Of a stretch of DNA of 64,000 bases, positions 1-11,912 are shown piece after piece. Source of the stretch: Patescibacteria group bacterium (lineage in GTDB: Bacteria; Patescibacteriota; Minisyncoccia; Phycocordibacterales; PALSA-1337); assembly GCA_018971685.1 (NCBI GenBank), contig JAGXAG010000001.1, forward strand, positions 19,162 to 83,161. The letters are read 5' to 3'. The first letter of the stretch is position 1; each line of letters begins with the position of its first letter. The notes beneath the pieces are model-generated. The model saw only the letters and a program-made list of their open reading frames with translations. It did not search any database and was not told the origin of the DNA. The position numbers were made by a program, and so were the translations under genes.

Positions 1-1017
1 ATTATCTCAATTATCATTGGCCGAGAGTTAAGTAAAACTGTCGGATTAATGAAATTGGAGAGAGCAAGTATGATGAACATGAGTAACAGGGTCCAAATAA
101 ACAAGATAAGATAGTAACCAAGATTCCGCTTAGTCATATCGATGTCAGCTTTGAGAAGCGAAATGAACTTGGTCTCCGAACTGATTGCCATAATGAGAGG
201 GGTGAAGATGAATAGCACTACGAAAATTGGGTGAAAATAATATGCGATCCAGCTTAGATTTGAAAACAGCAAGTTGTTAAAAGTAATCATACTGCCAGGC
301 ATTATCATGTGCAGATAATTCGGAAGCAGAATAACCTGATTAACGAAATTCGTTGATATGAAATAAAGCACCAGATTGAATATAAATAATGGCCTGAAGA
401 ATTTTACAGAATGTTCAGATAGGAGTTCGAAAGATATTGGTTCACGTGACAGTAATCTCGAGAGAAGTGCAATAAAAGCTGATTCGACAATTGTCAGTAG
501 CAGAATGGATAGAACCCCTATGCTGACCAGAGCTATTAGGCTTCCCAATAATACCAATATCTGACTCCCTAAAAAGAAGAGAGCAATAAGAGTTATTACC
601 GCCCCAACTAACAGTGCAAGTGCAGAGTAGAGGGCAGTTTTCTTGATAAAACCTGTCGATCGTAAAATCTTAATTTTCTTGAAGAAAAGTAGAAAAGCGA
701 CTACGAGTCCCAGAACACCGAAAAGCGCCGGAAAGGTAGTTGAGCCCAATACACTCAAAGGGTGAATGGAATGAGTAGCATAGAACAACTTTGCAGTAAT
801 TGATTGCTGGACATATTGATTCACCCCGTTGTTAATTATCGTATTCCCGAGTGTTTGAGTAAGCAGAAATTTCTGTCCTATCAGCGAAGGAATTTTGAAA
901 ATAACGTCGCATGCCACGAAAAATAATATCGTGCCATAAAGCCACTTATTATCGATAATTAGCGCGAAAGATTTTTTGTAATCGGCTACGAGTTCCTTTA
1001 GTATGCTGGCGTTCATT
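1..1017 (-). CDS. hypothetical polytopic membrane protein (C-terminal part; continues past the window start)
   Basis: Uninterrupted minus-strand reading frame from ATG near 1017 to position 1 (MNASILKELVADYKKSF...). Many hydrophobic segments. Absent from the ORF track because no stop lies inside the window. Confidence 0.5.
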
Positions 1018-1095
1018 GCTGTATACAGTACATCGCGAATCGATATAAGTAAAGCGCCAATCTTTTAATTATGTTTCAAACGTGGCATAATCGCA

Positions 1096-1578
1096 GTGAT
1101 GAAAATCCGTGTTAAGAAGTCAATTAGGGTGATATTCGCTCTTATCACAGGAGTCTGGATTTTCTTATTCTTAAGTTCGCTTTACTCATCACTCTGGGAG
1201 TTGCCGATCTTGTTAGGAGTGTTAGGTCTATTTTGGATAATTTTGTTCAAAAAGGTCTTGGTTGATTCGAAGATTGAAATCAATGGAAACAAAATAACCA
1301 TTGTCACGCCAAAATTATTTCGGGTGGCGGCTTATAGGAACTTCACACTTGAAAAATATGAATGGCCCTTGGCCGAAATTAAGTCATTGATACTGAAAAG
1401 AGTTAAGAAGCCTATTCAGAATGAAGCAAGCTATATTGGATACGGTCAATTATCTCTGATTGTCAGTACCTCAACCGGTGAGCATATTATTCCGGTAGAT
1501 ACATTTAGTTATGACGCAATGGTTAGATTATTTAAACCTTTTCCGATTTTCAAAGAAGAAAACCCCACCGGTCGGTGA
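1096..1578 (+). CDS. hypothetical small membrane protein (2 TM helices plus soluble domain)
   Basis: 160-aa ORF. The stop codon lies inside a palindromic repeat copy (1559-1584) that encodes the C-terminal PTGR. Confidence 0.45.
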   Translation: MMKIRVKKSIRVIFALITGVWIFLFLSSLYSSLWELPILLGVLGLFWIILFKKVLVDSKIEINGNKITIVTPKLFRVAAYRNFTLEKYEWPLAEIKSLILKRVKKPIQNEASYIGYGQLSLIVSTSTGEHIIPVDTFSYDAMVRLFKPFPIFKEENPTGR

Positions 1579-1584
1579 GGTTTT
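1559..1584. repeat. GC-rich palindromic element, short variant (AAAACCCCACCGGTCGGTGAGGTTTT); likely terminator
   Basis: Near-perfect palindrome sharing the CACCGGTCGG core with six other copies in the window. Overlaps the stop of the 1096..1578 ORF. Confidence 0.6.
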
Positions 1585-1601
1585 GTGGATCAGTGCCGCA
1601 G

Positions 1602-2165
1602 TCAGGCTGTGCCAATTTCAATGCACGCCATTTTCTGGGGATGATTTGCTAAGCTAATCTTTTTCGAAAGGGCTTCGATCTCTTTTTCAAAACCGACGCT
1701 TGTATGTTCCAGGTCCGGGATCTGAAGGACTTTAACAGGTTCTGGCAATATAATCTCTACCTCCGGACCAGCCTTGCTTTTGACCGCGGAGATGAAGCTT
1801 CGTCTTTGCGTGCAGAAGGGCTCCGGCATTGAATCCCATCCATGGCCCCAGCACTCCATTTCTAACTTTCTCAAAGGCAGGTAGCGGATGAGTAGCTTTG
1901 AAGAAGATATGCGAAGCTCGACATCTTCTCGAGGGTAAAACCTCTGCACCGCAACCTTCATTAAGGTCCGAGGATCACACGTAGCCACTGTGCGGCAATA
2001 CGGACCACCCGGCTCGATGGTTGAGAAAACCAGACCCGGGAAGTGTTTGGTCAAGAGGTCCTTGATTTCAGTCATCGTCAGCACCTCCCGATCGGAATCC
2101 TTTTGACACGAGTCGTCTACGAACTCCTTTAGTCTTGGCAGTAACATTGAATTTTCAATTTTCAT
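1602..2165 (-). CDS. hypothetical protein (island cargo, gene 2 of a two-gene minus-strand operon)
   Basis: Start chosen at MKIENSML, which is preceded by AAGGAG; the track ORF extends to 2198. About 52% GC, unlike the AT-rich left flank. No recognisable motif. Confidence 0.5.
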   Translation of the reverse strand: MKIENSMLLPRLKEFVDDSCQKDSDREVLTMTEIKDLLTKHFPGLVFSTIEPGGPYCRTVATCDPRTLMKVAVQRFYPREDVELRISSSKLLIRYLPLRKLEMECWGHGWDSMPEPFCTQRRSFISAVKSKAGPEVEIILPEPVKVLQIPDLEHTSVGFEKEIEALSKKISLANHPQKMACIEIGTA

Positions 2166-2175
2166 ACAAGTCTCC

Positions 2176-2814
2176 TTATGACGGTTTGACCAGCCCACCT
2201 TCTACCCATTCGATGACACGATAATCGCCGAAGCAACTATCGTTACGCCATTCATTGCAATCCGATAGGGAGCTCCACTCCCAGTTGATTCCATGCCATC
2301 TCATGCAGCGAATGTCCTGCCGGTGTTGCAGACCCAACATCGCTCCATTGGACGTGAAGCCCAGCACTGTTCCGAAGAAGTAGATTTCAAACTCTCTCCA
2401 CTCGACGGGAATCAGGTATGGGTATTGAAGCAGATAATCCAAAAGGTTTGTGTTACATGTAGGCCTGCCGCGAAGCACAGGAATCATTTGACCGATCGTG
2501 GGGAACTTATTTCCTCTTTTCGGTTCAGGTAGACATTCCGGAATGCTTAACCGGACTGCGTCGGGAGCCCAAGTGCGACGCCCCTGCTTCACGTGTTCAT
2601 CAACTCCAAACTGATTCGGAACAAACGGATCAGCATCGCAGTCGATCGTGTGAACGATGTTTTCCCAGCACGGCTGCTTACGTAGGTATCGATTGAGTTG
2701 GTATTCATATTCTGGACCATCTTCACCTGTCACTTTGATCATCAGGTCAGTAAACGGTCCGCGCCAGAACTTGCGGAGCGTTTCTGGATTACCGAGTATG
2801 TTGGTAGACATAGT
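2176..2814 (-). CDS. hypothetical Cys/His/Trp-rich protein (island cargo, gene 1 of the operon)
   Basis: Start chosen at MSTNILGNPETL behind a GGAA RBS; the track ORF runs to 2895. Lies 10 nt upstream of the next gene. No recognisable family. Confidence 0.45.
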   Translation of the reverse strand, partial: TMSTNILGNPETLRKFWRGPFTDLMIKVTGEDGPEYEYQLNRYLRKQPCWENIVHTIDCDADPFVPNQFGVDEHVKQGRRTWAPDAVRLSIPECLPEPKRGNKFPTIGQMIPVLRGRPTCNTNLLDYLLQYPYLIPVEWREFEIYFFGTVLGFTSNGAMLGLQHRQDIRCMRWHGINWEWSSLSDCNEWRNDSCFGDYRVIEWVEGGLVKPS

Positions 2815-3098
2815 CAGTTCCTTTCGTTTTTCGAGGTTCTTGTTGCTGGACTCTTCGCCACAGCGGAAGCTTAACTTCTGACATAACAATACCATTTCTG
2901 TAAGGAATCGTCAATCCCACCCTGTTTTGTACCCCGTTATTGCCACCTGTTCGCCCCTGTGTGCGCTTTTCAGTGCGGAATTGGCCGTTTCCACGCCTTC
3001 GGGCAAGTTCATGCCGGTGTGCCCGAATTTTGCCTAAGTTGCCTATTGCGGAAAAGCTCGGTCGAGAGTTAGGATGGATTTACGTAAAAGAACGCCAT

Positions 3099-3374
3099 AT
3101 GACTACGAACGCCAATGACATCGATGCCGGTATTAAACTCCTTTTAGAAAAGCTATCTGAAGAATTTGAGATAGTAAAAAGGCAGGGTTTTCCTGCAAAA
3201 GCATATTTTCGTTCGTATCCGCCTCGAACGTGTGATGTAAGCATTCCAAGTCCGAGGTGGCATGCCTGGGCTCGTGAGCTCGATGTTGATGAAGTCCGAT
3301 TCGAAGCGTTGATAAAAATTCTGGCAAAAGAAGGTTTTCTGGAAGGTTATAAATTTATCTCTGAAAGCCAATGA
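3099..3374 (+). CDS. hypothetical small protein (possible winged-helix); start uncertain (alternative 2940)
   Basis: ORF 2940..3374; internal start MTTNANDIDAG chosen because the upstream part is Arg/Cys-rich and low-complexity. Its stop overlaps the start of the next gene. Confidence 0.3.
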   Translation: MTTNANDIDAGIKLLLEKLSEEFEIVKRQGFPAKAYFRSYPPRTCDVSIPSPRWHAWARELDVDEVRFEALIKILAKEGFLEGYKFISESQ

Positions 3375-4372
3375 TTAATCTTGAATTATGGTTTCCAGAA
3401 GATTTCGACAAGCGATATGCAAAATATCGTGAGGATCATGTTGAAAATAAAATGCCGGAACCTTTCTTTTCCGAACGTTTGCAGAATGAACGAAAAAATA
3501 TCTTATCTATAAAAACCGAAGATGATTTCCGAAATGAAATTGAAAAGTGGAGTCCCCTTAAAACCATTATTGATGCCATTCATAAAGACCTCTCTCCATT
3601 TTTGCCTAGTAGCGCTCAAGTAATAAATATCGACCTTACAAAATTGGGAATCTCTGAAAAGGAAGCTGGTCATATTTTGATGATGCTGGCCTACGAGCGA
3701 ATTTGCAGATGGAAAATAAATAAGAGCTCGGCAGTCATATCAACAGAGGCTCTGGCGGGGTATTTAGGCGGAAACGGCATCGTCATTCCTGACTACGATA
3801 AATTTCAAGGATTTAGGAAAGAGGTTATGGATTTCTATGAATTTTTAGAGGATCAGAGAAACCAGAAATTTCCGAAAAGTAATGCGGCGAAGGCGGAAAA
3901 TGTGAAGAATAATAAACAGGAATCTGCGGCTGATTCCGACGTAATTGATGAGACTGTAAAAAGAGTGGCCGTATGGGGCGGAGAAACTGTATCCGATTTA
4001 CCACTGATTACCTATAACGAGGTCACTGGCAAAGGTGAGGTTATTGGTAAAAAGAAATTCAAGTTTAAAGACGGTAGCCCGGAGTATAAGATTTTCAATA
4101 TGCTTTATGCCAAGCTGGCTAAAAAGACCGCCAAACTCGAGCGGCAGGACGTGCTGATAGCCGGTGGTTTTTACAAGGATTATGAGGAGCCTGACCCGAC
4201 ACGAAAAACAAACGAAACAGCATTCATAAACGAGGTAGCTAAATCTATCAGAGAAAAGACTGGTTTGGATACCGAGGAGCTCGTGAATAATAACGGCAGT
4301 TTAACCTTGCTCGTCTTGCGGCAGGATAAGAATCCACCAAAAGTCACCAAGTTCGTCCCGGTCTGGGGCTAA
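3371..4372 (+). CDS. hypothetical protein, 333 aa (island cargo)
   Basis: Long ORF translationally coupled to the upstream gene (ATGA overlap at 3371-3374). No recognisable motif. Confidence 0.5.
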   Translation: MINLELWFPEDFDKRYAKYREDHVENKMPEPFFSERLQNERKNILSIKTEDDFRNEIEKWSPLKTIIDAIHKDLSPFLPSSAQVINIDLTKLGISEKEAGHILMMLAYERICRWKINKSSAVISTEALAGYLGGNGIVIPDYDKFQGFRKEVMDFYEFLEDQRNQKFPKSNAAKAENVKNNKQESAADSDVIDETVKRVAVWGGETVSDLPLITYNEVTGKGEVIGKKKFKFKDGSPEYKIFNMLYAKLAKKTAKLERQDVLIAGGFYKDYEEPDPTRKTNETAFINEVAKSIREKTGLDTEELVNNNGSLTLLVLRQDKNPPKVTKFVPVWG

Positions 4373-4452
4373 ATCGCACCAGATTGCCTCTAAATTAAAA
4401 GCTTGCTCAAGAACATAATCTGGCAAGCCCAGCTTTTTTCATTCAGCCAAAT

Positions 4453-4526
4453 CCGAACGCCATGCGGAGAAGTCAATTTTTTGCATAGTCCGTCCTTACT
4501 GGCGTTCGGAACGGATTATGCAAAAA
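4453..4526. promoter_or_regulatory. two interleaved inverted repeats (CCGAACGCCA/TGGCGTTCGG and TTTTTGCATA/TATGCAAAAA) upstream of the excisionase-like gene
   Basis: Read directly from the sequence. Lies in the 170-nt gap between the cargo genes and the int/xis module. Confidence 0.4.
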
Positions 4527-4539
4527 GCGGGCTTCTTAC

Positions 4540-4722
4540 ATGCTGCCACAAGAAGCCATAGATGAGTTCAAAAAGCTCTATAAGGCACGCTTCGGGGTCG
4601 ATCTCACCAATGAGGAAGCGTCTTTCCGAGCCAATAACCTCGTGAATCTGTACGAGGCTGTTTATGATACTTCCTGTGGCAAGCAAAGCGAGGCTCCTGA
4701 ATCTAAACCATGCCAGCCATGA
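4540..4722 (+). CDS. hypothetical small protein (60 aa)
   Basis: ORF-track entry immediately downstream of the inverted repeats. Overlaps the start of the next gene. Confidence 0.3.
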   Translation: MLPQEAIDEFKKLYKARFGVDLTNEEASFRANNLVNLYEAVYDTSCGKQSEAPESKPCQP

Positions 4723-5135
4723 CCAGATTCAACCCTCAAATTATCAGCCGACATTTGAGCTACACCTTGCCGGAAATTGCAGCGAAACTCCACATGACCA
4801 AGAAATCTCTATATCGATGGATTGACGAGGGTCTGCCGATCGTTCCGGGCCAGAGGAAACCCATCCTGATCCATGGCGATGACCTCAAGACGTTCATCAA
4901 TGCCCGCAATTCGAGACATAAAGTGAAGCTGAAAAGACACGAGTTCTACTGCTTCAGATGCAGGGCTCCGAGGCAAGCAAAGAGGGGTACGATAACAAAG
5001 TCCGGCTATACGAGAAGTGGTGAGTGCAGTGTTTGTAACGGCAAAATGCAGAGGAAATTTAGACCCTATCAAAAGGACTATCACATATCCTCATCTCCCG
5101 TCCAAATGTCCACATTGTTCGATAATCTGACATAA
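4710..5135 (+). CDS. excisionase-like HTH (MerR/HTH_17-type) DNA-binding protein with C-terminal Cys4 zinc ribbon
   Basis: LPEIAAKLHMTKKSLYRWIDEGLPIV is a helix-turn-helix. CFRC...CSVC is a zinc ribbon. Sits directly upstream of the integrase. Confidence 0.5.
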   Translation: MPAMTRFNPQIISRHLSYTLPEIAAKLHMTKKSLYRWIDEGLPIVPGQRKPILIHGDDLKTFINARNSRHKVKLKRHEFYCFRCRAPRQAKRGTITKSGYTRSGECSVCNGKMQRKFRPYQKDYHISSSPVQMSTLFDNLT

Positions 5136-5142
5136 CACCAAA

Positions 5143-6291
5143 ATGACAAAAATTAGTGAGAAAAATGAGCCTGAAAAGCTCACCGAGGATACTTCGATTC
5201 CGTACCGAAATGAGCAGGCCAAAAGACGCTTCTTCGAGCACCTTTCTGGCGGTGAAGGGTTCGCCGGTGAGTCGGTTTCAACCTTTGCCGAGGCTGTCGG
5301 CCAATGGCAGCAGTTCTCCAAAAATGATGACTTTGTTAATTTCGATAGAAGTAAGGCAACGGAGTTCGTGGCTTGGCAGAAAACGCGTCCGACCAAAGCC
5401 AAAGGCGGAAAGCTCGCATTGCAGACGCAATATAATTATCTTCGCCGCATCAAGCGATTCTTTATGTGGCTTGCGGAGCAGAAAGATTACAAGAAAATTA
5501 AGAAGGATGACATCGATTATCTGCGCCTGCCAAGAAAAGAGGCTCGAATGGCCACTGCCGGCACGACCAGAGTGATGCCGACGTTCGAGGAAGTGAAGCG
5601 GATCATAATGAGTATCCATCCGAAGAATGAAATCGATGAGCGTGATCGCGCCATATTGAGCTTAGCTTTGATAACTGGCATGCGCATATCGGCCATAGCA
5701 ACCTTGAAGATGAAGAACTTCAACCGAGCAGATAAGCTCTTTGATCAGAACCCAGGCGATGGCGTGTTGACCAAGAACTCAAAGAAAATCCTGACCACGT
5801 TCTTTCCGATCGGCTGGGATGAGCCGGAGCGATTCTTTCTCGACTGGTATGACCACTTGGTATCAAAAGGAGCAAAGCCAGATAGCCCGATATTTCCATC
5901 GACTCTCAAAGGATTTTCGGGCAAGAATGATTACAGCAAGACTCTTGTAAGCGATGAGAGCTGGGCCAGCTCGAGCGGTGCCAGGAAGATATTTGAGAAG
6001 CGATGTAAGGCTGCCGGTGTAACTTACTTCAATCCGCATTCGTTCCGGCATCTCATCGTAAACTATATGAGCAAGGCCAGATTGACTGAGGAAGAAAAGA
6101 AAGCCATCAGTATGAACCTCGGACATGAGAATGTCGGCACAACATTCGGTTCCTATGGTTACGGAAATATGACACCCATTGATGCCGTTCATATCGTGCA
6201 GAAGCTAACGATGACTCCGACCAACGGCCAGAGCGTCATTATTACTCCCGAGGAAAAAGCTGCACTCGAGAAATTATTGAAACGTCTATGA
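5143..6291 (+). CDS. int: tyrosine site-specific recombinase / integrase
   Basis: Catalytic-domain motifs: R in GMRISA, HSFRH, LGHENVGTTFGSYGY (catalytic Tyr). Adjacent to a tRNA gene. Confidence 0.8.
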   Translation: MTKISEKNEPEKLTEDTSIPYRNEQAKRRFFEHLSGGEGFAGESVSTFAEAVGQWQQFSKNDDFVNFDRSKATEFVAWQKTRPTKAKGGKLALQTQYNYLRRIKRFFMWLAEQKDYKKIKKDDIDYLRLPRKEARMATAGTTRVMPTFEEVKRIIMSIHPKNEIDERDRAILSLALITGMRISAIATLKMKNFNRADKLFDQNPGDGVLTKNSKKILTTFFPIGWDEPERFFLDWYDHLVSKGAKPDSPIFPSTLKGFSGKNDYSKTLVSDESWASSSGARKIFEKRCKAAGVTYFNPHSFRHLIVNYMSKARLTEEEKKAISMNLGHENVGTTFGSYGYGNMTPIDAVHIVQKLTMTPTNGQSVIITPEEKAALEKLLKRL

Positions 6292-6337
6292 AGAAAATCA
6301 GCTTGGCTTCCATGCCAAATAAGCACATAATATCAAC

Positions 6338-7963
6338 ATGAAGAACGCCAAGGAAACGCCAGTCAAATACTTCCTGTATGCCAGGAAATCGACCGAATCA
6401 GAAGACCGGCAGGTGCTTTCGATTGAGTCGCAAATCGACGAGCTGAAAGCTATCGCTGACCGAGAGAACATAAAAATTATCGAAGTGCTCCACGAATCGC
6501 GGTCCGCTAAGGCTCTTGGCCGACCAGTATTCAACGATATGATTGACCGCATCAATCGTGGAGAGGCTACCGGCATCCTATGCTGGAAGCTCGATCGCCT
6601 GGCTCGTAATTTCATTGACGCGGGCAAGGTCATCGAGATGTTGCAGCACAGCGTCATTCGGCACATCCGAAGCTATGAAAAAAGCTACTATCCGCAAGAT
6701 AACGTGCTCATGATGAGCCTCGAGTTCGGCGTGGCCAACCAATTCTCCCGCGACCTTGCGGTGAATGTGAACCGAGGCATGAAGAAAAAGGCCGAAATGG
6801 GCTGGTATCCGGTCCAACCACCAATCGGCTATCTGAACAGTAAGAATAAGGGCAAAGGCAAGAACGACATCTCAAAAGACACCGAGCGATACGACATCGT
6901 GCGAAAAGTCTTTGATCTTATGTTGACTGGCACGATGTCAGCTCATCAAGTCTGGCTGACTGCTACGGAAAAATATGGACTGCGAACACGGAAAGATAAG
7001 CTGATTTGCCGCAGCTCGATTTACTACGTGCTGACCAATCCTTTTTACTACGGCATGTTTGAGTGGCCACGAGGAAGCGGGACGTGGTATCGAGGAGCGC
7101 ATGAACCGATGATTACTGAAGAAGAATACGATCGCATTCAGATATTGCTCGGCAGAAAGGGCAAGCCTCGCCCAAAGAGTCACATCTTCGACTTCACCGG
7201 CATGTTTCGATGTGGAGAGTGCGGCGGCGTCATCACGGCAGAGGAGAAGATAAAGCGACCAAAGAACGGAAACGTGCATCGCTACATTTATTATCACTGC
7301 ACAAAGCGTGTCCATCCCGACTGCACGCAAGGCTCTATTGAAGTGACGGAGCTGAAGAAGCAGATCATCAAAAAGATTGAATCCTTGGAGATTCCTCCAG
7401 AGTTCCACACCTATGCCTTAAAATGGTTCAGGAAGAAGAACGAAAAGGACGTTGAGACGAATACAACGATTCTATCCGCGCAACAGAAGGCCTACGATGC
7501 CTGCGTACGAAAAATCGGCGCATTGATTGATATGCGTGCCACCAACGAGATTACATCCGAGGAGTTCGCCGATAGGAAGACATACCTCGTAAAGGAAAAG
7601 AGTCGACTTGAAGAGCTCCTGAACGATACCGGCGATCGCGTCAATAAACAACTTCAGAACGCCGATGATCTATTCACGTTCCTGCGCGATGTTGTCGAAA
7701 AGTTCAATACCAAAGGTTTTGAGACCAGAAGACGCATACTTTCGACACTTGGTCAGAACCTTTTGCTAAAGGACAAAATACTAAGCATTGACTGGGAGAA
7801 ATCGCTGTTGCCATCACAAAAGCTCGCCGGTGAAGTGAAGAAAATCCACGAACGGTTAGAACCTACAAAAAACAAGATGTCACAAGGAGATTTGGAAGAA
7901 ATCTACTCCAAAAATCCAATAGTGTGCGCCCAGTTGGAGTCGAACCAACGACCCACTCCTTAA
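6338..7963 (+). CDS. large serine recombinase (resolvase domain, recombinase domain and zinc ribbon)
   Basis: N-terminal YARKSTESEDRQVLSIESQ with catalytic Ser. CGECGG...YYHC zinc ribbon. Coiled-coil C-terminus. The last ~13 codons overlap tRNA-Lys. Confidence 0.8.
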   Translation: MKNAKETPVKYFLYARKSTESEDRQVLSIESQIDELKAIADRENIKIIEVLHESRSAKALGRPVFNDMIDRINRGEATGILCWKLDRLARNFIDAGKVIEMLQHSVIRHIRSYEKSYYPQDNVLMMSLEFGVANQFSRDLAVNVNRGMKKKAEMGWYPVQPPIGYLNSKNKGKGKNDISKDTERYDIVRKVFDLMLTGTMSAHQVWLTATEKYGLRTRKDKLICRSSIYYVLTNPFYYGMFEWPRGSGTWYRGAHEPMITEEEYDRIQILLGRKGKPRPKSHIFDFTGMFRCGECGGVITAEEKIKRPKNGNVHRYIYYHCTKRVHPDCTQGSIEVTELKKQIIKKIESLEIPPEFHTYALKWFRKKNEKDVETNTTILSAQQKAYDACVRKIGALIDMRATNEITSEEFADRKTYLVKEKSRLEELLNDTGDRVNKQLQNADDLFTFLRDVVEKFNTKGFETRRRILSTLGQNLLLKDKILSIDWEKSLLPSQKLAGEVKKIHERLEPTKNKMSQGDLEEIYSKNPIVCAQLESNQRPTP

Positions 7964-7997
7964 AAGGGAGTTGCTCTACCAGCTGAGCTATGGGCGC
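7925..7997 (-). tRNA. tRNA-Lys (anticodon UUU)
   Basis: Manual fold: GCGCCCA acceptor, GCTC/GAGC D-stem, ACTCC-CTTTTAA-GGAGT anticodon arm, GTTGG-TTCGACT-CCAAC T-arm. 73 nt; CCA not encoded. Confidence 0.75.
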
Positions 7998-8087
7998 ATA
8001 CATTACATGTTCAACAATAACACGGGTTCCGCACTCGATCAAACCAATGCGCGATCAGACACAATAGTCAGATCAGTCAACACGCCG

Positions 8088-8825
8088 TCACAACTCCGAT
8101 TTAATCCCGAGCAACAGTCTTTCGATGCCAAGTTCAAGGTCAATAGCGCCGCGATGAGCGTCGTGGTAGAGAACGGTCAAATTCCGAAGGAGTGAGTGCA
8201 GTTCGACCGACGAATAATTGGCGGCATACCTTTTCGATTTGTTGAAAACGAACGGGTTCATGTCCGATTCGACGACACTTTTTGATTTTGCCGCGACCGC
8301 CATCGATTTTGCTTGCCAGAATAAAGTGCCGACAATATTTTCCGGCTCAGTGCCGGCACCGATCGCTTCGCAGTAGAGCGACCAGGCCTTGAATGAATCG
8401 CGCGCGCCGAGCGCGTCCGCGAGCGCAAATATGCTTTTGCCGTCGGCTTTTCCGGCGCCAAACGAGACGGCATCGTCGTTTTCAACTGACCTTTCCGCGT
8501 GTTTTTCGAACGCTTTTTTCAATTCCGCGTTCAATCTGCCCTCGAGCACGATAAATATGTTCGCCGATTCATTCATAGCCTCGGCAAAACCGGCAATTTG
8601 TTCCTTGGCCTCGATGTTTTCCGCAACCCGGTCTAGGAATATTATGTATTTATTCGAGAACAGCCCTTGGCCGTCCAAGTGTTCCTCTATTGTCGCCGGA
8701 CTCCAATGATCCGCATCGATTGCCACAAAAGCCGCGTCGGGACGCTTGCTTTTCAGTGAATTCAAAAGTGTGTGCGCCTTTTTCGCGCTTAACTCCGTGT
8801 TTTGGCCGTGAAAAACATATAACAT
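8088..8825 (-). CDS. holA: DNA polymerase III delta subunit-like (HolA N-terminal domain pattern)
   Basis: MLYVFHGQN...GLFSNKYIIFLDRV matches the delta-subunit N-terminal pattern. Short at 245 aa. Confidence 0.5.
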   Translation of the reverse strand: MLYVFHGQNTELSAKKAHTLLNSLKSKRPDAAFVAIDADHWSPATIEEHLDGQGLFSNKYIIFLDRVAENIEAKEQIAGFAEAMNESANIFIVLEGRLNAELKKAFEKHAERSVENDDAVSFGAGKADGKSIFALADALGARDSFKAWSLYCEAIGAGTEPENIVGTLFWQAKSMAVAAKSKSVVESDMNPFVFNKSKRYAANYSSVELHSLLRNLTVLYHDAHRGAIDLELGIERLLLGIKSEL

Positions 8826-8833
8826 GGCGGCTA

Positions 8834-9289
8834 TTATTTGTGCATGTCCGACATGTGTATCGATCTGTCGTTTTCGCCGACAGCTTCAAACTCGATCAGG
8901 CGTGTATTGTTCGGCAATATTTCTTTTACTTTTTCCATCCACTCGATCAAGATCAGATTGCCTTCGTCTGCCACAATGTCTTCGAAACCAAGCACCGCCA
9001 GCTCCCTGCCCTCTTCCAATCTATAAGCGTCTATGTGAACCAGTTTTTTCCAAGGTCCGATCTTGGGATCATACAACTTCATGATGACGAAAGTCGGACT
9101 GGTTACCTGTTCGACCACTCCCAATTCCGCGGCAACCGCCTGGGCAAATGCCGTCTTGCCCGAACCCAGATGGCCGGAAAGGCCTACAACTGTCGCTTCA
9201 TCCGCGCTTTTCTCGAACGAAATCACGGTCAGACAGTGGCGGGCGATTTCGCGCGTTTGTTCTGGTGAATGTGAGATGAACAATTTCAT
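8834..9289 (-). CDS. tsaE: tRNA threonylcarbamoyladenosine biosynthesis ATPase TsaE (YjeE)
   Basis: GLSGHLGSGKT P-loop. About 150 aa. Typical TsaE layout. Confidence 0.7.
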   Translation of the reverse strand: MKLFISHSPEQTREIARHCLTVISFEKSADEATVVGLSGHLGSGKTAFAQAVAAELGVVEQVTSPTFVIMKLYDPKIGPWKKLVHIDAYRLEEGRELAVLGFEDIVADEGNLILIEWMEKVKEILPNNTRLIEFEAVGENDRSIHMSDMHK

Positions 9290-9356
9290 AAAATATTTAC
9301 TCCGCTAACGGATTCTCGCTTTCACGGGAATAATAAACCCTTTCAACTATGCACAT

Positions 9357-11912
9357 TCACTTCAGCTCGCCCCAATTATCACCGACGCTCTCATGTGCCG
9401 CCAATATTATCCCTTTCGTATTCTTCGGATCAACAACCGACTCCATGATCCGTTTTATTTCCTTGGCAACCGTTTCAACTTTATCTTCTCTGATTTCGTA
9501 GATCAATTCATCGTGCACTTGCAATAACGGAAAAACTCCGCCGCCTGGATTTTCACACTCCAAATATTCATCGATCTTGACCATGGCCAGCTTGATAATA
9601 TCGGCTTCGGTACCTTGGATCGGCGCGTTGATTGCCATGCGTTCGGCCTGCGCTTTGATATAGGGGATTTTCGAATTTATGCCCTCGAAGTATCTGCGCC
9701 GCCCGAACAAGGTCTCCGTGTAACCGCGGCGCGCCGTTTCTTCCTTGATCTTGTCCAAATAAGAAGCCAGCGTGGCAAATTCCGCAAAGTAATCATTCAA
9801 GAACTTTTGCGCATCTTCCCTGCTCGCGCCCAGATTTTGCTTCAAGGCCAAGACGCCCATGCCGTATATGATGCCGAAATTGATCACTTTCGCCCGGCGT
9901 CTCATTTCCGGCGTAACATTTTCCGGCTTTACCTTGAATGTGAAGGCGGCCACGGCGGTATGGACATCTTCGCCTTTTCTGAAAATATCGATCAGTTTTT
10001 TATCACCCGACAGAAACGCTGCGATGCGTAACTCCATCTGTGAATAGTCGAAAGCCGCCAACTTGAACCCCCTCTCGGCGACAAACGCATATCTGATCGC
10101 CTTGCCGAGTTCCGATTTGACCGGAATGTTTTGCAGATTGGGATTTTCCGACGCCATGCGGCCGGTCGCCGCGCCGCTCTGGATGAAATGCGTGTGCAAT
10201 CTGTCGTTTCCATCCAGCAGCGGCGGTATGGCGTCGATATATGTAGACAACAATTTCGACAACTCACGGTAATCAAATATCATCGGCACCACCGGGTGCA
10301 TATCACGCATCTTTTCCAGCTCCGATTCGCGTGTCGACCGCGCGCCGCCGGCCGTTTTCTTGCCGTTTTTTATCTTCAGCCCCAGCTTGTCGAACAAAAA
10401 TTCGCCCAGCTGCTTCGGCGAGTTTATGTTGAATTCCCCGCCCGCCGCGTCCCAAATCTTCTTTTCGATCATTTCCAACTCGGCGTGGTATTTCTCCGAC
10501 AGTTTTTTCAGCGCGTTTTTGTCGACTTTTATGCCGCGCTGTTCCATCTTGCGCAATACCGGCGCAAGCGGCCGTTCGATCTCATTGTATATTTTACGCT
10601 GGCCGCTTTTATCCAATTCATCGAATATCACTTTTTTGGCTTCATTTAAGTTTTTCACGCCCGTAAAATTCATAATATCTTCCAACTTTGGGTTTGTCAT
10701 ATTGGAATTCACCAGCCATAAGGCGAGCGCCGCCTGTTCGAATTCGCCTTCGTTCGCCGACGCCTTCCGCAAATGAGACCCCTCGAGTTCCGCGACTCTG
10801 CCGCGAAGCAATCCGTCGCCGCGTTTCCCAACCGACAAGTCCGTGCATGTCCGAGAGGACTTGTCGGTTGTGGAAACGCCGACGGTTGCGAGCGGCATTC
10901 GCGAAACTCGAGGGGTCTCATTTGCGGAAGGCGCGGCGCCGGCGAAAGTTGATGAAATGCCAACAGCCTTTTCAAGCCTCTGCGGCAATGTCCGGAACTC
11001 CAATTCGCGCCACAGTGTATTGATTTTCTCCAAATCAAGTCCTTCCTTGAAAGATTTGTCCGGCAGCGAAAATTTGATGGGTGCGTCACGGCGAATCGTC
11101 GCCAGCATTTTACTGAATTCGGCGTCTTCTTTGCTCTCTTTCAATATCTTTAAAAGCCGCGGCGTCAGTCCGGCCTTCTTAAACTTTTCATCATGTCCGG
11201 ATTCCAATTCTCGGTAAATATCATCAATCCCGCCAAAAACGGTTATAAGAGCTGTGGCTGTTTTCTCGCCTATGCCCGCCACGCCAGGAATATTGTCCGA
11301 CGGATCGCCCCGCAGGCCTTTGTAGTCCGGAATCAATTCCGGACCAAAACCGAAACGCTTTCTCACCGCGTTCTCGTCGTACATGATCGTGTCGTTTATG
11401 CCTTTTTTGAGGGTATAAACCTTAACATCTTCGCCGTGAATTAATTGCATGGTATCCATGTCGCCGGAGGCAATAACGATCTCAACTCCATTGTTAGTCT
11501 CCTCCGCCGTCTCGACGAGAGAGGTGGTGGCCAACTGATGAACAATAGTCCCGATAATGTCATCGGCTTCAAAACCCTGCGCATCATATATGGGAATACC
11601 GAGTGCCGCAAAGATATCACGAGAACGAATGATTTGCGCGATGAGATCATCCTCTGTTTTTTTGCGGCCGGCTTTGTATTCTTTGTAAACTTCATGGCGA
11701 TATGTTGGACCTTTGACATCGTAACAGGCGATCATGTAATCCGGCTTCAAATCCTCGATGATTTTTATGAGCATGGTCGAAAGCCCGTAAATCGCGCCCG
11801 TCGGTTCACCCTTTTTAGTCGCGAAATCCGGCAAGGCGTGATAAGCGCGGTGGAGGATCGCGTGGGCGTCGAGCAATACCAAGCGTTTTTTGCCTTGAAT
11901 GGTTTGCGGCAT
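9357..11912 (-). CDS. polA: DNA polymerase I (5'-3' exonuclease plus polymerase domain; no 3'-5' exonuclease domain; palindromic in-frame insert at the domain junction)
   Basis: N-terminal FEN/5'-nuclease motifs (LVLLDAHAILHRAYHAL, EADDIIGT). C-terminal family-A pol motifs (RRRAKVINFGIIYGM, QVHDELIYE). 851 aa. Confidence 0.9.
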   Translation of the reverse strand: MPQTIQGKKRLVLLDAHAILHRAYHALPDFATKKGEPTGAIYGLSTMLIKIIEDLKPDYMIACYDVKGPTYRHEVYKEYKAGRKKTEDDLIAQIIRSRDIFAALGIPIYDAQGFEADDIIGTIVHQLATTSLVETAEETNNGVEIVIASGDMDTMQLIHGEDVKVYTLKKGINDTIMYDENAVRKRFGFGPELIPDYKGLRGDPSDNIPGVAGIGEKTATALITVFGGIDDIYRELESGHDEKFKKAGLTPRLLKILKESKEDAEFSKMLATIRRDAPIKFSLPDKSFKEGLDLEKINTLWRELEFRTLPQRLEKAVGISSTFAGAAPSANETPRVSRMPLATVGVSTTDKSSRTCTDLSVGKRGDGLLRGRVAELEGSHLRKASANEGEFEQAALALWLVNSNMTNPKLEDIMNFTGVKNLNEAKKVIFDELDKSGQRKIYNEIERPLAPVLRKMEQRGIKVDKNALKKLSEKYHAELEMIEKKIWDAAGGEFNINSPKQLGEFLFDKLGLKIKNGKKTAGGARSTRESELEKMRDMHPVVPMIFDYRELSKLLSTYIDAIPPLLDGNDRLHTHFIQSGAATGRMASENPNLQNIPVKSELGKAIRYAFVAERGFKLAAFDYSQMELRIAAFLSGDKKLIDIFRKGEDVHTAVAAFTFKVKPENVTPEMRRRAKVINFGIIYGMGVLALKQNLGASREDAQKFLNDYFAEFATLASYLDKIKEETARRGYTETLFGRRRYFEGINSKIPYIKAQAERMAINAPIQGTEADIIKLAMVKIDEYLECENPGGGVFPLLQVHDELIYEIREDKVETVAKEIKRIMESVVDPKNTKGIILAAHESVGDNWGELK
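10763..10931. repeat. 169-bp imperfect palindrome inside polA (27-bp perfect outer arms 10763-10789 / 10905-10931; 14-bp inner arms 10829-10842 / 10857-10870), kept in frame
   Basis: The outer arms (CCTTCCGCAAATGAGACCCCTCGAGTT and its reverse complement) were read directly. The six-frame track shows open frames on both strands across it. Confidence 0.7.

What the first reader, a model, noticed from the sequence alone, without database searches (positions are those of the whole stretch)
1602..2814. Two-gene cargo operon of unknown function (candidate defence or toxin-antitoxin-like module)
Two minus-strand genes (212 aa Cys/His/Trp-rich; 187 aa) are separated by 10 nt with strong RBSs. They have higher GC than the left flank and no recognisable domains. 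They sit at the distal end of the integrase island, a position typical for defence or anti-defence cargo.
Basis: inference. Interest (0 to 1): 0.55.

Follow-up and report, generated by a model that had tools for sequence, protein, structure and literature searches.

The report
Island cargo operon, unknown Patescibacteria proteins
Two co-transcribed genes of unknown function sit in the middle of a small mobile DNA island in an ultra-small (Patescibacteria) bacterium. The first gene belongs to a very large, undescribed protein family with an unusually conserved RNA leader, and nothing shows that the pair is a toxin-antitoxin or defence system.

Summary
The two genes are real. A is 2811-2176 (211 aa, not 212) and B is 2165-1602 (187 aa). 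The gap is 10 nt, both have RBSs, and the unit has its own promoter (2914-2886) and terminator (1584-1559). Both genes are under purifying selection (dN/dS about 0.09).

They are cargo of an about 9.5-kb integrative element in tRNA-Lys. They lie mid-island, not at its distal end. The distal pair, just outside the window, is DUF3800 plus a partner, and it matches the PADLOC defence candidate PDC-M04.

A is not an orphan. It belongs to a family of more than 2,000 clusters, named only from Patescibacteria, with no Pfam or NCBIfam model and no significant structural neighbour (weak C-type-lectin-like hits only). Family members are mostly stand-alone chromosomal genes, and some lie in phage early regions.

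B occurs only in this island lineage and evolves about four times faster than A.

The leader plus the first 25 or so codons of A are nearly frozen at the nucleotide level across divergent genomes. A leader helix (P2) recurs family-wide with compensatory changes, so this is a candidate cis-regulatory RNA.

Toxin-antitoxin or defence is not supported, but it is not excluded. Function remains inferred.

The parts
2886..2914 (-). Sigma-70-type promoter of the A-B operon: TTGACG (2914-2909), 17-nt spacer, TG-extended TATTGT (2891-2886). The inferred transcription start is about 2879.
   Evidence: The promoter scan found it. An equivalent TTGAC(A/G)-17-TAnnnT lies at the same alignment position in 5 of 6 orthologous loci.
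2866..2878 (-). Leader hairpin P1, at the predicted 5' end of the mRNA: GAAG / CTTC stem with a TTAAG loop.
   Evidence: The stem changes in a compensatory way between loci: GAAG/CTTC, AGAG/CTCT and GGAG/CTCC. It is part of the MFE fold.
2845..2864 (-). Leader helix P2: GCUG-U-GGC[GAAGA]GUC-CAGC, with a GNRNA-type pentaloop.
   Evidence: RNAalifold predicts it independently. The same architecture is found in 10 of 11 leaders, including distant family members and one non-family gene. Outer-stem variants are GCUG/CAGC, ACUG/CAGU, GCUA/UGGC, GCCA/UGGC and ACUG/CGGU. It is one of only two strict motif matches in the 64-kb window (1.4 expected by chance); the other lies antisense within the serine recombinase gene and is read as chance.
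2735..2864 (-). Nucleotide-frozen block: leader from P2, RBS AAAGGA (2824-2819), start codon, and about 25 codons of A. It includes the predicted start-codon hairpin (2818-2791) and the CCAGAA/UUCUGG hairpin (2787-2764).
   Evidence: Pairwise nucleotide identity is 0.88-0.97 in the first 60 coding nt, against 0.3-0.7 later in the gene. 12 of 15 invariant degenerate codons are identical in codons 1-20, against about 4 of 40 after codon 30. dS is 0.16 for codons 1-30 and 0.95 for the rest.
2176..2811 (-). Gene A, 211 aa (GenBank MBU6426640.1, 'hypothetical protein'). It has an N-terminal three-helix module (about residues 1-50) and a roughly 130-aa alpha/beta domain shared by a large, undescribed family named only from Patescibacteria.
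   Evidence: Supporting calls are 1, 18, 23, 37, 41, 43 and 91. A profile built without the close subfamily scores A at 128 bits, E 3e-32, and 21 of 24 near-invariant positions are kept. The AF2 model has pLDDT 82.7 and pTM 0.72.
1602..2165 (-). Gene B, 187 aa (GenBank MBU6426639.1, 'hypothetical protein'). It is translationally coupled to A and is restricted to this island lineage.
   Evidence: Only 2 clusters match among 5.8 billion proteins. It occurs only next to A in island loci. dN is 0.30, against 0.07 for A. There are no family, PDB or phage hits. The AF2 model is unusable (pLDDT 40).
1559..1584 (-). Intrinsic terminator of the operon: an 11-bp stem followed by a T-run. It overlaps the 3' end of the convergent 160-aa gene.
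   Evidence: the sequence is shown.
7924..7931 (-). att core (GGGCGCAC on the tRNA strand) at the 3' end of tRNA-Lys(UUU) (7924-7997). This is the right-hand border of the island that carries A-B.
   Evidence: The tRNA is. The junction sequences are compared.

Best explanation
A-B is a self-contained, bicistronic accessory ('moron-like') operon. It is carried in the middle of an active, about 9.5-kb integrative element inserted at the 3' end of tRNA-Lys in a Patescibacteria (CPR) genome.

What is shown:
- The operon has its own strong promoter, a roughly 68-nt leader, a coupled A-B junction and an intrinsic terminator.
- A is an island-borne, diverged member of a very large, undescribed protein family, named only from Patescibacteria where a source gives an organism. 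Family members are soluble and cytoplasmic, about 185-210 aa, with a helical N-terminal module and a roughly 130-aa alpha/beta domain.
- B is a fast-evolving protein found only in this island lineage.

What is inferred:
1. A is a non-enzymatic binding or recognition protein. It has a weak C-type-lectin-like topology. Relatives occur as tandem-repeat fusions and tandem paralogues. Copies move between chromosomes, islands and phage early regions next to orphan DNA methyltransferases. That pattern suggests a role in host / mobile-element conflict rather than housekeeping.
2. Synthesis of A is controlled after transcription. The control would act through the structured leader (P1, P2) and a hairpin that buries the start codon. 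This would explain why the leader and the first 25 or so codons are frozen at the nucleotide level.
3. B is a lineage-specific partner made in fixed ratio with A by translational coupling. It most likely binds A as an adaptor or antagonist that retargets or restrains it.

The pair is not a recognisable toxin-antitoxin or defence system.
For: Operon anatomy.

Island:
- tRNA-Lys, tyrosine integrase, large serine recombinase and an HTH_17 excisionase-like gene are present.
- L035 is 100 % identical to window 1-5107 and continues through a DUF3800 gene to a pseudo-tRNA end. That end is joined to the sequence that follows tRNA-Lys in the window, giving an attP-like junction.

Module conservation: the A-B module is 74 % identical at the nucleotide level in a second island whose neighbouring cargo differs.

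Family membership.

Distribution of relatives:
- Stand-alone chromosomal copies lie between housekeeping genes, with 210-340-nt upstream spacers.
- Phage copies lie in RecT / replication / DnaC / NinB regions, or directly upstream of a DNA methyltransferase. One contig has three tandem copies.
- Multi-domain fusions exist.

Protein properties:
- A and B are soluble and lack transmembrane segments or signal peptides.

Leader.

Coding status: both genes are under purifying selection, and B's dN is four times A's.
Against: - There is no direct evidence that A and B interact. Only two diverged versions of the pair exist, so co-evolution cannot be measured.
- Within the close subfamily the leader varies too little for significant covariation: 67 of 500 shuffles reach the observed score. 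The start-codon hairpin never varies, which says nothing either way.
- The family-wide P2 comparison was made with my own pattern script on 11 leaders, not with a calibrated covariance test.
- The frozen block is also open in two antisense frames.
- The island carries a defence candidate next door, so guilt by association keeps a defence role for A-B alive.
Confidence: 0.45

Rival explanations
1. Toxin-antitoxin or addiction module, or a two-gene defence system. The most coherent version has B as the island-specific toxin or effector and A as its antidote or sensor. A would be recruited from a widespread family whose solo copies act as orphan immunity or decoy proteins.
For: - The two genes are coupled and lie in mobile-element cargo, with gene order and 10-nt spacing conserved in two island lineages.
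- B evolves fast.
- A PADLOC defence candidate (PDC-M04) lies in the same island.
- A-family copies occur solo, in tandem arrays, as fused repeats and on phages, as immunity-type families do.
Against: - Neither protein has a PADLOC, Pfam or NCBIfam hit.
- No nuclease, kinase, NTase, HTH, RHH or other toxin or antitoxin domain is present.
- Both proteins are large for type II TA (211 and 187 aa).
- B has no relatives outside the island. Toxin families are normally widespread.
- A cannot be the toxin, because its relatives are nearly always solitary.
Confidence: 0.2
2. A and B are functionally unrelated passengers. A is an autonomous family cassette, and B is an orphan gene that merely shares its transcript.
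For: - A works without B in almost every other genome.
- B has no detectable relatives and no confident fold.
- Island cargo is modular and shuffled between the two islands.
Against: - The 10-nt junction, with B's RBS overlapping A's stop codon, is kept in both island lineages despite about 26 % nucleotide divergence.
- B is under purifying selection.
- There is no separate promoter or terminator between the genes.
Confidence: 0.2
3. The frozen 130-nt block is not an RNA regulator. It would instead be a DNA-level feature: a recombination or gene-conversion hotspot that swaps 5' ends between family genes, a protein-binding operator, or an antisense coding or sRNA gene.
For: - Identity is near-complete across very different genomes and decays as a gradient into the gene.
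- The same N-terminal module type is attached to a different C-terminal domain in another genome (L029, 238-aa protein).
- Two antisense frames stay open across the block.
- In L026 and L029 the P2 5' strand is part of a long palindrome that could be an operator.
Against: - Compensatory changes keep P1 and P2 paired across loci. That is not expected for a DNA site or an antisense ORF.
- The block lies downstream of a well-placed promoter.
- No repeat of the block exists elsewhere in the window.
- No recombinase lies near the solo copies.
Confidence: 0.15

Closest known systems
tRNA-targeting integrative genomic islands with a tyrosine integrase plus excisionase (P4/HPI-type islands), here with an additional large serine recombinase
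   Same: - The island inserts at the 3' end of a tRNA gene.
- Integrase and an HTH_17 excisionase-like gene sit next to the tRNA.
- A degenerate tRNA 3' copy lies at the far end.
- A junction sequence is consistent with an excised circle.
- The cargo is modular.
   Different: - Two recombinases of different classes lie side by side.
- The serine recombinase ORF runs 40 nt into the tRNA gene.
- The shared core is only about 8 nt.
- The host is a Patescibacteria genome, and the element is very small (about 9.5 kb).
Type II toxin-antitoxin operons
   Same: It is a two-gene, translationally coupled operon on a mobile element with a fast-evolving member.
   Different: There are no toxin or antitoxin domains and no DNA-binding domain. 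The proteins are larger than usual. The upstream gene is usually found alone in other genomes.
PADLOC candidate system PDC-M04 (DUF3800 protein plus partner)
   Same: It lies in the same island and is also a two-gene cargo pair conserved in both island lineages.
   Different: It is a different gene pair, located outside the window to the left. A and B do not match its models.
C-type-lectin-like (CLec/CTLD) fold proteins, including bacterial and phage ligand-binding domains
   Same: The weak structural hits to the A model are dominated by CTLD-type domains: aerolysin APT domain, CD72, pertussis S3, intimin/invasin, FGE/EgtB. The top Foldseek hits are also CTLDs.
Autoregulatory or ligand-sensing 5' leaders (ribosomal-protein leaders, riboswitches); GNRNA pentaloop hairpins such as lambda boxB
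   Same: - The 5' UTR is conserved and structured, lies directly upstream of one gene family, and helices are kept by compensatory changes.
- The start codon lies in a predicted hairpin.
- In some members the P2 5' strand has an alternative upstream partner.
- The P2 loop GAAGA has the same sequence form as the boxB pentaloop (this comparison is from my own knowledge, not tested).
   Different: There is no Rfam match. No ligand or binding protein is known. In one genome a related hairpin also precedes unrelated hypothetical genes.

Membership tests
Undescribed protein family found here, named only from Patescibacteria where a source gives an organism (no Pfam/NCBIfam accession) | Significant match to a profile built only from distant members | tested here: met
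   A profile of 44 members, excluding the close subfamily, scores A at 128 bits, E 3.3e-32 for a 1.84-billion-sequence library. A profile seeded on A finds 2,053 representatives, 1,029 of them at E 1e-10 or better.
Undescribed protein family found here, named only from Patescibacteria where a source gives an organism (no Pfam/NCBIfam accession) | Near-invariant motif residues (I56 D57 P62 P65 H73 G77 N120 L124 D125 L127 L128 I134 P135 W138 F145 G147 T148 R168 W172 W177 and others) | tested here: met
   21 of 24 positions are kept. The exceptions are A121T, Y150L and L170M.
Type II toxin-antitoxin system | A known toxin domain and an antitoxin with a DNA-binding domain (HTH/RHH/AbrB/Phd) | tested here: not met
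   Pfam, NCBIfam and PADLOC give no hits for A or B, and PHROGs gives only a chance-level match (E 0.058) for A, at E up to 1. A PDB sequence search gives nothing better than E 0.27.
Type II toxin-antitoxin system | Obligate co-occurrence of the two genes | tested here: not met
   B is always next to A, in the island loci (the window/L035 island and the L013/L014 island). A-family genes in 9 other distinct contexts have no B-like neighbour.
Type II toxin-antitoxin system | Growth inhibition by one partner, neutralised by the other | not testable with these tools
   This needs expression experiments.
Known or candidate anti-phage defence systems (PADLOC-DB v2) | Match to a system HMM | tested here: not met
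   There is no hit for A or B. The neighbouring DUF3800 pair does match PDC-M04A/B.
C-type-lectin-like fold superfamily | Significant structural similarity of a confident model | tested here: inconclusive
tRNA-integrating mobile genomic island | Site-specific recombinase(s) adjacent to a tRNA gene | tested here: met
   tRNA-Lys is at 7924-7997. Phage_integrase scores E 9.5e-16, and Resolvase/Recombinase/Zn_ribbon_recom score E 1.6e-19.
tRNA-integrating mobile genomic island | Repeat of the tRNA 3' end at the far border, or an excision junction | tested here: met
   L035 ends with a degenerate tRNA 3' copy (GGTTCTGACTTCATTCAATAGGGCGCAC). It is fused to the 22 nt that follow tRNA-Lys in the window. 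The same pseudo-tRNA end occurs twice in L019.
Rfam RNA families | Covariance-model match to the leader | tested here: not met
   There is no match at E up to 1 in the window (1-9000) or in 9 related loci.

The most novel reading that the evidence does not exclude
The frozen leader plus early coding region would be a new class of cis-regulatory RNA. It could be riboswitch-like or an autoregulatory protein-binding leader built on the P2 helix. It would control a family of more than 2,000 clusters that is exchanged between chromosomes, integrative islands and phages. On this reading, A-B is a previously unrecognised sensor-partner module acting in phage / mobile-element conflict in CPR bacteria.
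Probability: 0.15. Interest if true: 0.7.

Novelty: new member of a known kind. Interest (0 to 1): 0.45.

Why it matters
Patescibacteria make up a large share of bacterial diversity, yet most of their lineage-specific genes have no assigned function.

This finding matters for three reasons:
- It links an island cargo gene to a family of more than 2,000 sequence clusters that no curated database describes and whose predicted fold has no significant match in the solved (PDB) or viral (BFVD) structure libraries searched.
- It shows that members of this family travel on integrative islands and phages.
- It exposes a leader RNA whose conservation exceeds that of the protein it precedes.

If the leader is a true regulator, or if the family acts in phage-host conflict, either would open a tractable entry point into CPR-specific biology. 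If not, the locus is an ordinary pair of hypothetical cargo genes.

Tried and rejected
1. Curated domain libraries for A and B (Pfam, NCBIfam, PHROGs, PADLOC) gave nothing. Typical family members and longer fusion proteins also gave nothing informative.
2. PDB sequence searches with profiles of A and B gave nothing significant.
4. The AF2 model of B from 3 sequences has pLDDT 40 and was not used.
5. tblastn of A and B against GenBank phages found no match. A scan of viral contigs for B found none. The exact nucleotide block was not found in viral contigs.
6. I considered whether the frozen block is the island's att site. I rejected this because the solo loci L001, L005 and L009 carry the block without any integrase, and the real att core lies at the tRNA-Lys 3' end.
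7. I considered whether A starts at the upstream ATG at 2895. I rejected this because that ATG lies inside the promoter spacer, just upstream of the -10 box, and all homologues start at MSTN.
8. I considered whether B is a diverged copy of the A domain or of any neighbouring gene. An hmmsearch of the B profile against all fetched loci found only B orthologues.
9. I considered a PD-(D/E)XK nuclease reading of the D57...E-H-x-K motif. The spacing does not fit and no nuclease appears among the structural hits.
10. Literature searches for PDC-M04 and for CPR tRNA-Lys islands with serine recombinases found nothing relevant. DUF3800 appears in papers on retron- and CRISPR-associated genes (titles and abstracts only were seen).
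Full report
**1. What is at 1602-2814**

The minus strand carries two adjacent ORFs.
Translating from 2814 gives an extra Thr before the Met.
- Six homologues begin with the identical MSTNILGN. In L009 the open frame extends only 6 codons upstream of that ATG.
- A ends at TAA 2178-2176. Gene B starts at ATG 2165-2163, 10 nt later. B's AAGGAG (2177-2172) overlaps A's stop codon. A has AAAGGA at 2824-2819.
- A sigma-70-type promoter lies at 2914-2886 (TTGACG, 17 nt, TG-extended TATTGT). An intrinsic terminator with an 11-bp stem and a T-run lies at 1584-1559. Together they bracket the pair.
- Against the orthologues in L014, dN/dS is 0.09 for A and 0.08 for B, so both are expressed protein-coding genes. 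B's dN (0.30) is four times A's (0.07) and six times that of the island recombinases.
- Both proteins are soluble and lack hydrophobic segments. A has 7 Cys, 9 Trp and 4 His.
- The exact sequences are already in GenBank as hypothetical proteins of a 'Patescibacteria group bacterium' (MBU6426640.1 and MBU6426639.1, present in four assemblies).

**2. Composition**

A (GC 0.498) and B (0.486) are within one standard deviation of the rest of the window (0.467, sd 0.045). The left flank at 1-1578 (0.381) is the unusual part.

**3. The island and where A-B sits in it**

To the right of A-B lie the following genes:
- a 91-aa and a 333-aa gene;
- a 60-aa gene;
- an HTH_17 excisionase-like gene;
- a tyrosine integrase;
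- a large serine recombinase, whose ORF runs 40 nt into tRNA-Lys(UUU) (7924-7997).

Contig L035 comes from an independent sequencing run. It is 100 % identical to window 1-5107 and extends 1,573 nt past the window's left edge.
- After B it carries the convergent 160-aa gene, a 367-aa membrane-protein gene (seen in the window as an ORF running off the edge), a 188-aa gene and a DUF3800 gene.
- L035 ends with a degenerate copy of a tRNA 3' end (GGTTCTGACTTCATTCAATAGGGCGCAC). This copy is joined to the 22 nt that follow tRNA-Lys in the window.
- That arrangement is the junction expected for an excised circle or a head-to-tail tandem. The shared core is GGGCGCAC.
- The overlap with the window is 30 nt, which equals k-1 if Logan's unitigs use k = 31 (the k value is from my own knowledge). 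This suggests the integrated and joined forms coexisted in that sample.

The element is therefore about 9.5 kb, and A-B lies in its middle.

A second island (L013 = L019, a Saccharibacteria MAG) compares as follows:
- It shares the recombinase module at 85 % nucleotide identity, the A-B module at 74 % and the DUF3800 module at 76 %.
- Its other cargo differs.

The DUF3800 protein and its 188-aa (176-aa in L013) neighbour match the PADLOC candidate system PDC-M04 (E 2e-89 and 3e-37). The island's recognisable defence candidate is thus a different pair, at the true distal end.

**4. Protein A is not an orphan**

- The word-indexed search found only five clusters (49-84 % identity). Only two of 185,579 species genomes carry this close subfamily.
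- A profile search of 1.84 billion representatives found 2,053 proteins, 1,029 of them at E 1e-10 or better.
- A second indexed search listed about 190-aa 'hypothetical proteins'. Wherever a source names an organism, it is a Patescibacteria lineage: Moranbacteria, Liptonbacteria or 'Patescibacteria group'.
- The shared part is a roughly 130-aa domain (A residues about 53-185). Its motifs are H.IDCDADPF.P.GW.V.EH.KGG and PVLNANVLDYLL..P.LIPEEWKGK.VFFWGTIYR...VR.L.W.G..W.W.
- Some proteins carry 2-4 tandem copies of the domain.
- A keeps 21 of 24 near-invariant positions. It scores 128 bits (E 3e-32) against a profile that excludes its close relatives.
- No Pfam or NCBIfam model matches typical members.
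- The AF2 model is confident (pLDDT 82.7, pTM 0.72). It shows three N-terminal helices followed by a beta4-alpha3-beta4 domain.

**5. Genomic habits of the family**

- Four typical members on long contigs are solitary genes between housekeeping genes: PBP2-[X]-greA-mraZ, argS-[X]-ileS, Wzy-[X]-radC, and one inside a cluster of hypothetical genes. Their upstream spacers are 210-340 nt, and none has a B-like neighbour.
- Solo copies of the close subfamily lie just downstream of tRNA-His (one directly, one after an intervening 211-aa gene) or between transporter genes.
- Four IMG/VR contigs also carry the domain. In one pair it lies among RecT, replication-initiator, DnaC-like and NinB/Orf genes. 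In two others it lies directly upstream of a DNA methyltransferase, once as three tandem paralogues.

Variable location, self-contained expression signals, tandem amplification and presence on phages and islands fit an accessory, conflict-related binding protein better than a core housekeeping function. This is an inference, not a demonstration.

**6. Protein B**

- B has two clusters among 5.8 billion proteins, one of them the window's own.
- It occurs only downstream of A in the island loci.
- It has no hit in any family library, in PDB, in GenBank phages or in viral contigs.
- Its structure prediction failed.

**7. An unexpected nucleotide-level feature**

Six loci whose A proteins are only 45-84 % identical to the window's share a near-invariant DNA stretch. 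It runs from about -53 to about +75 relative to the ATG (window about 2864-2735).
- Synonymous sites are frozen. 12 of 15 invariant degenerate codons are identical in codons 1-20, against about 4 of 40 after codon 30.
- dS is 0.16 for codons 1-30 and 0.95 for the rest.
- Upstream, a TTGAC(A/G)-17-TAnnnT promoter is at the same position in 5 of 6 loci.
- The transcript would start at a hairpin (P1) whose stem changes in a compensatory way: GAAG/CTTC, AGAG/CTCT and GGAG/CTCC.
- It is followed by helix P2, GCUG-U-GGC[GAAGA]GUC-CAGC.
- RNAalifold predicts P2, and also a hairpin that contains the start codon.

With my own pattern script, the P2 architecture is present in 10 of 11 leaders.
- These include distant family members, where a hairpin is inserted into the loop, and one unrelated gene in L029.
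- The outer stems are GCUG/CAGC, ACUG/CAGU, GCUA/UGGC, GCCA/UGGC and ACUG/CGGU.
- In L026 and L029 the P2 5' strand can alternatively pair with an upstream complement.

Caveats:
- Within the close subfamily the variation is too small for significance: 67 of 500 shuffles reach the observed score.
- Rfam has no match.
- In the 64-kb window the strict motif matches only twice (1.4 expected by chance). One match is A's leader. The other lies antisense within the serine recombinase gene and is read as chance.
- Two antisense frames are open across the block. An antisense product or a DNA-level role cannot be excluded.

I read this as a candidate cis-regulatory leader that extends into the coding region.

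**8. Verdict**

The pair is best described as a coupled accessory operon of an active integrative element in a Patescibacteria genome. It combines a diverged member of a large undescribed family with a lineage-specific partner.

The toxin-antitoxin or defence reading has no positive evidence and fails the tested membership criteria. The neighbourhood (PDC-M04) and the family's association with mobile elements keep a conflict-related role plausible.

The mechanism I commit to has three parts:
- A is a binding protein under post-transcriptional leader control.
- B is its stoichiometric partner.
- The pair is not a classical TA.

Overall confidence in this mechanism is about 0.45. The descriptive parts are well supported, and the functional parts are inferred.

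Noticed in passing
window 7902-7997; L035 6590-6680; L019 40-110, 9745-9830, 10925-11000: The island appears active. L035 joins the island's far end (a degenerate tRNA 3' copy) to the sequence that follows tRNA-Lys in the window, which is an attP-like or tandem junction. The shared core is GGGCGCAC. L019 has two successive pseudo-tRNA ends, which suggests a remnant of a second element.
   Followed up: partly
L035 5276-6548 (outside the window, about 170-1,440 nt left of position 1); L013 8422-9658: The DUF3800 protein and its neighbour match the PADLOC candidate defence system PDC-M04A/B (E 2e-89 and 3e-37). This pair is the true distal cargo of the island and is conserved in both island lineages.
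   Followed up: partly
window 5143-7963: A tyrosine integrase and a large serine recombinase lie side by side in one small island. The serine recombinase ORF overlaps the 3' 40 nt of tRNA-Lys, and L013 has the same arrangement.
   Followed up: no
L029 5704-9739: Six consecutive hypothetical genes include one A-family gene and a 238-aa protein with an A-like N-terminal module. Each has its own terminator, and each is preceded by a roughly 40-nt conserved element (ACTCAAYGCCGTTCTAATCTCGTTCC...GCGCACA) just upstream of its promoter. Three also carry the GCCACAGC / GCTGTGGC hairpin. This looks like a regulon of self-contained cassettes.
   Followed up: partly
L033 304-2009; L034 1218-2911; L031 5031-5552: A-family domains occur on phage-like contigs. 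L033 has three tandem paralogues. In L033 and L034 the copies lie directly upstream of a phage DNA methyltransferase. In L031 the copy lies within a RecT / replication / DnaC / NinB early region.
   Followed up: partly
window 1-1578: This is a low-GC (0.38) segment inside the island. It encodes a 160-aa membrane protein and a multi-pass membrane protein of more than 340 aa that runs off the window edge (367 aa in L035). Neither has a family match, and the segment is not shared with the related island.
   Followed up: no
window 4468-4536: An imperfect inverted repeat (26-nt arms, 81 % complementary, 17-nt spacer) lies between the 333-aa gene and the 60-aa gene upstream of the excisionase-like gene. 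It could be a regulatory or recombination-directionality site.
   Followed up: no
window 8088-11912 compared with L019 11138-15827: holA and polA lie next to the 5' side of tRNA-Lys in the window. In the related Saccharibacteria contig they lie at the opposite (far) end of the island, in inverted orientation. This implies a rearrangement around the integration site.
   Followed up: no
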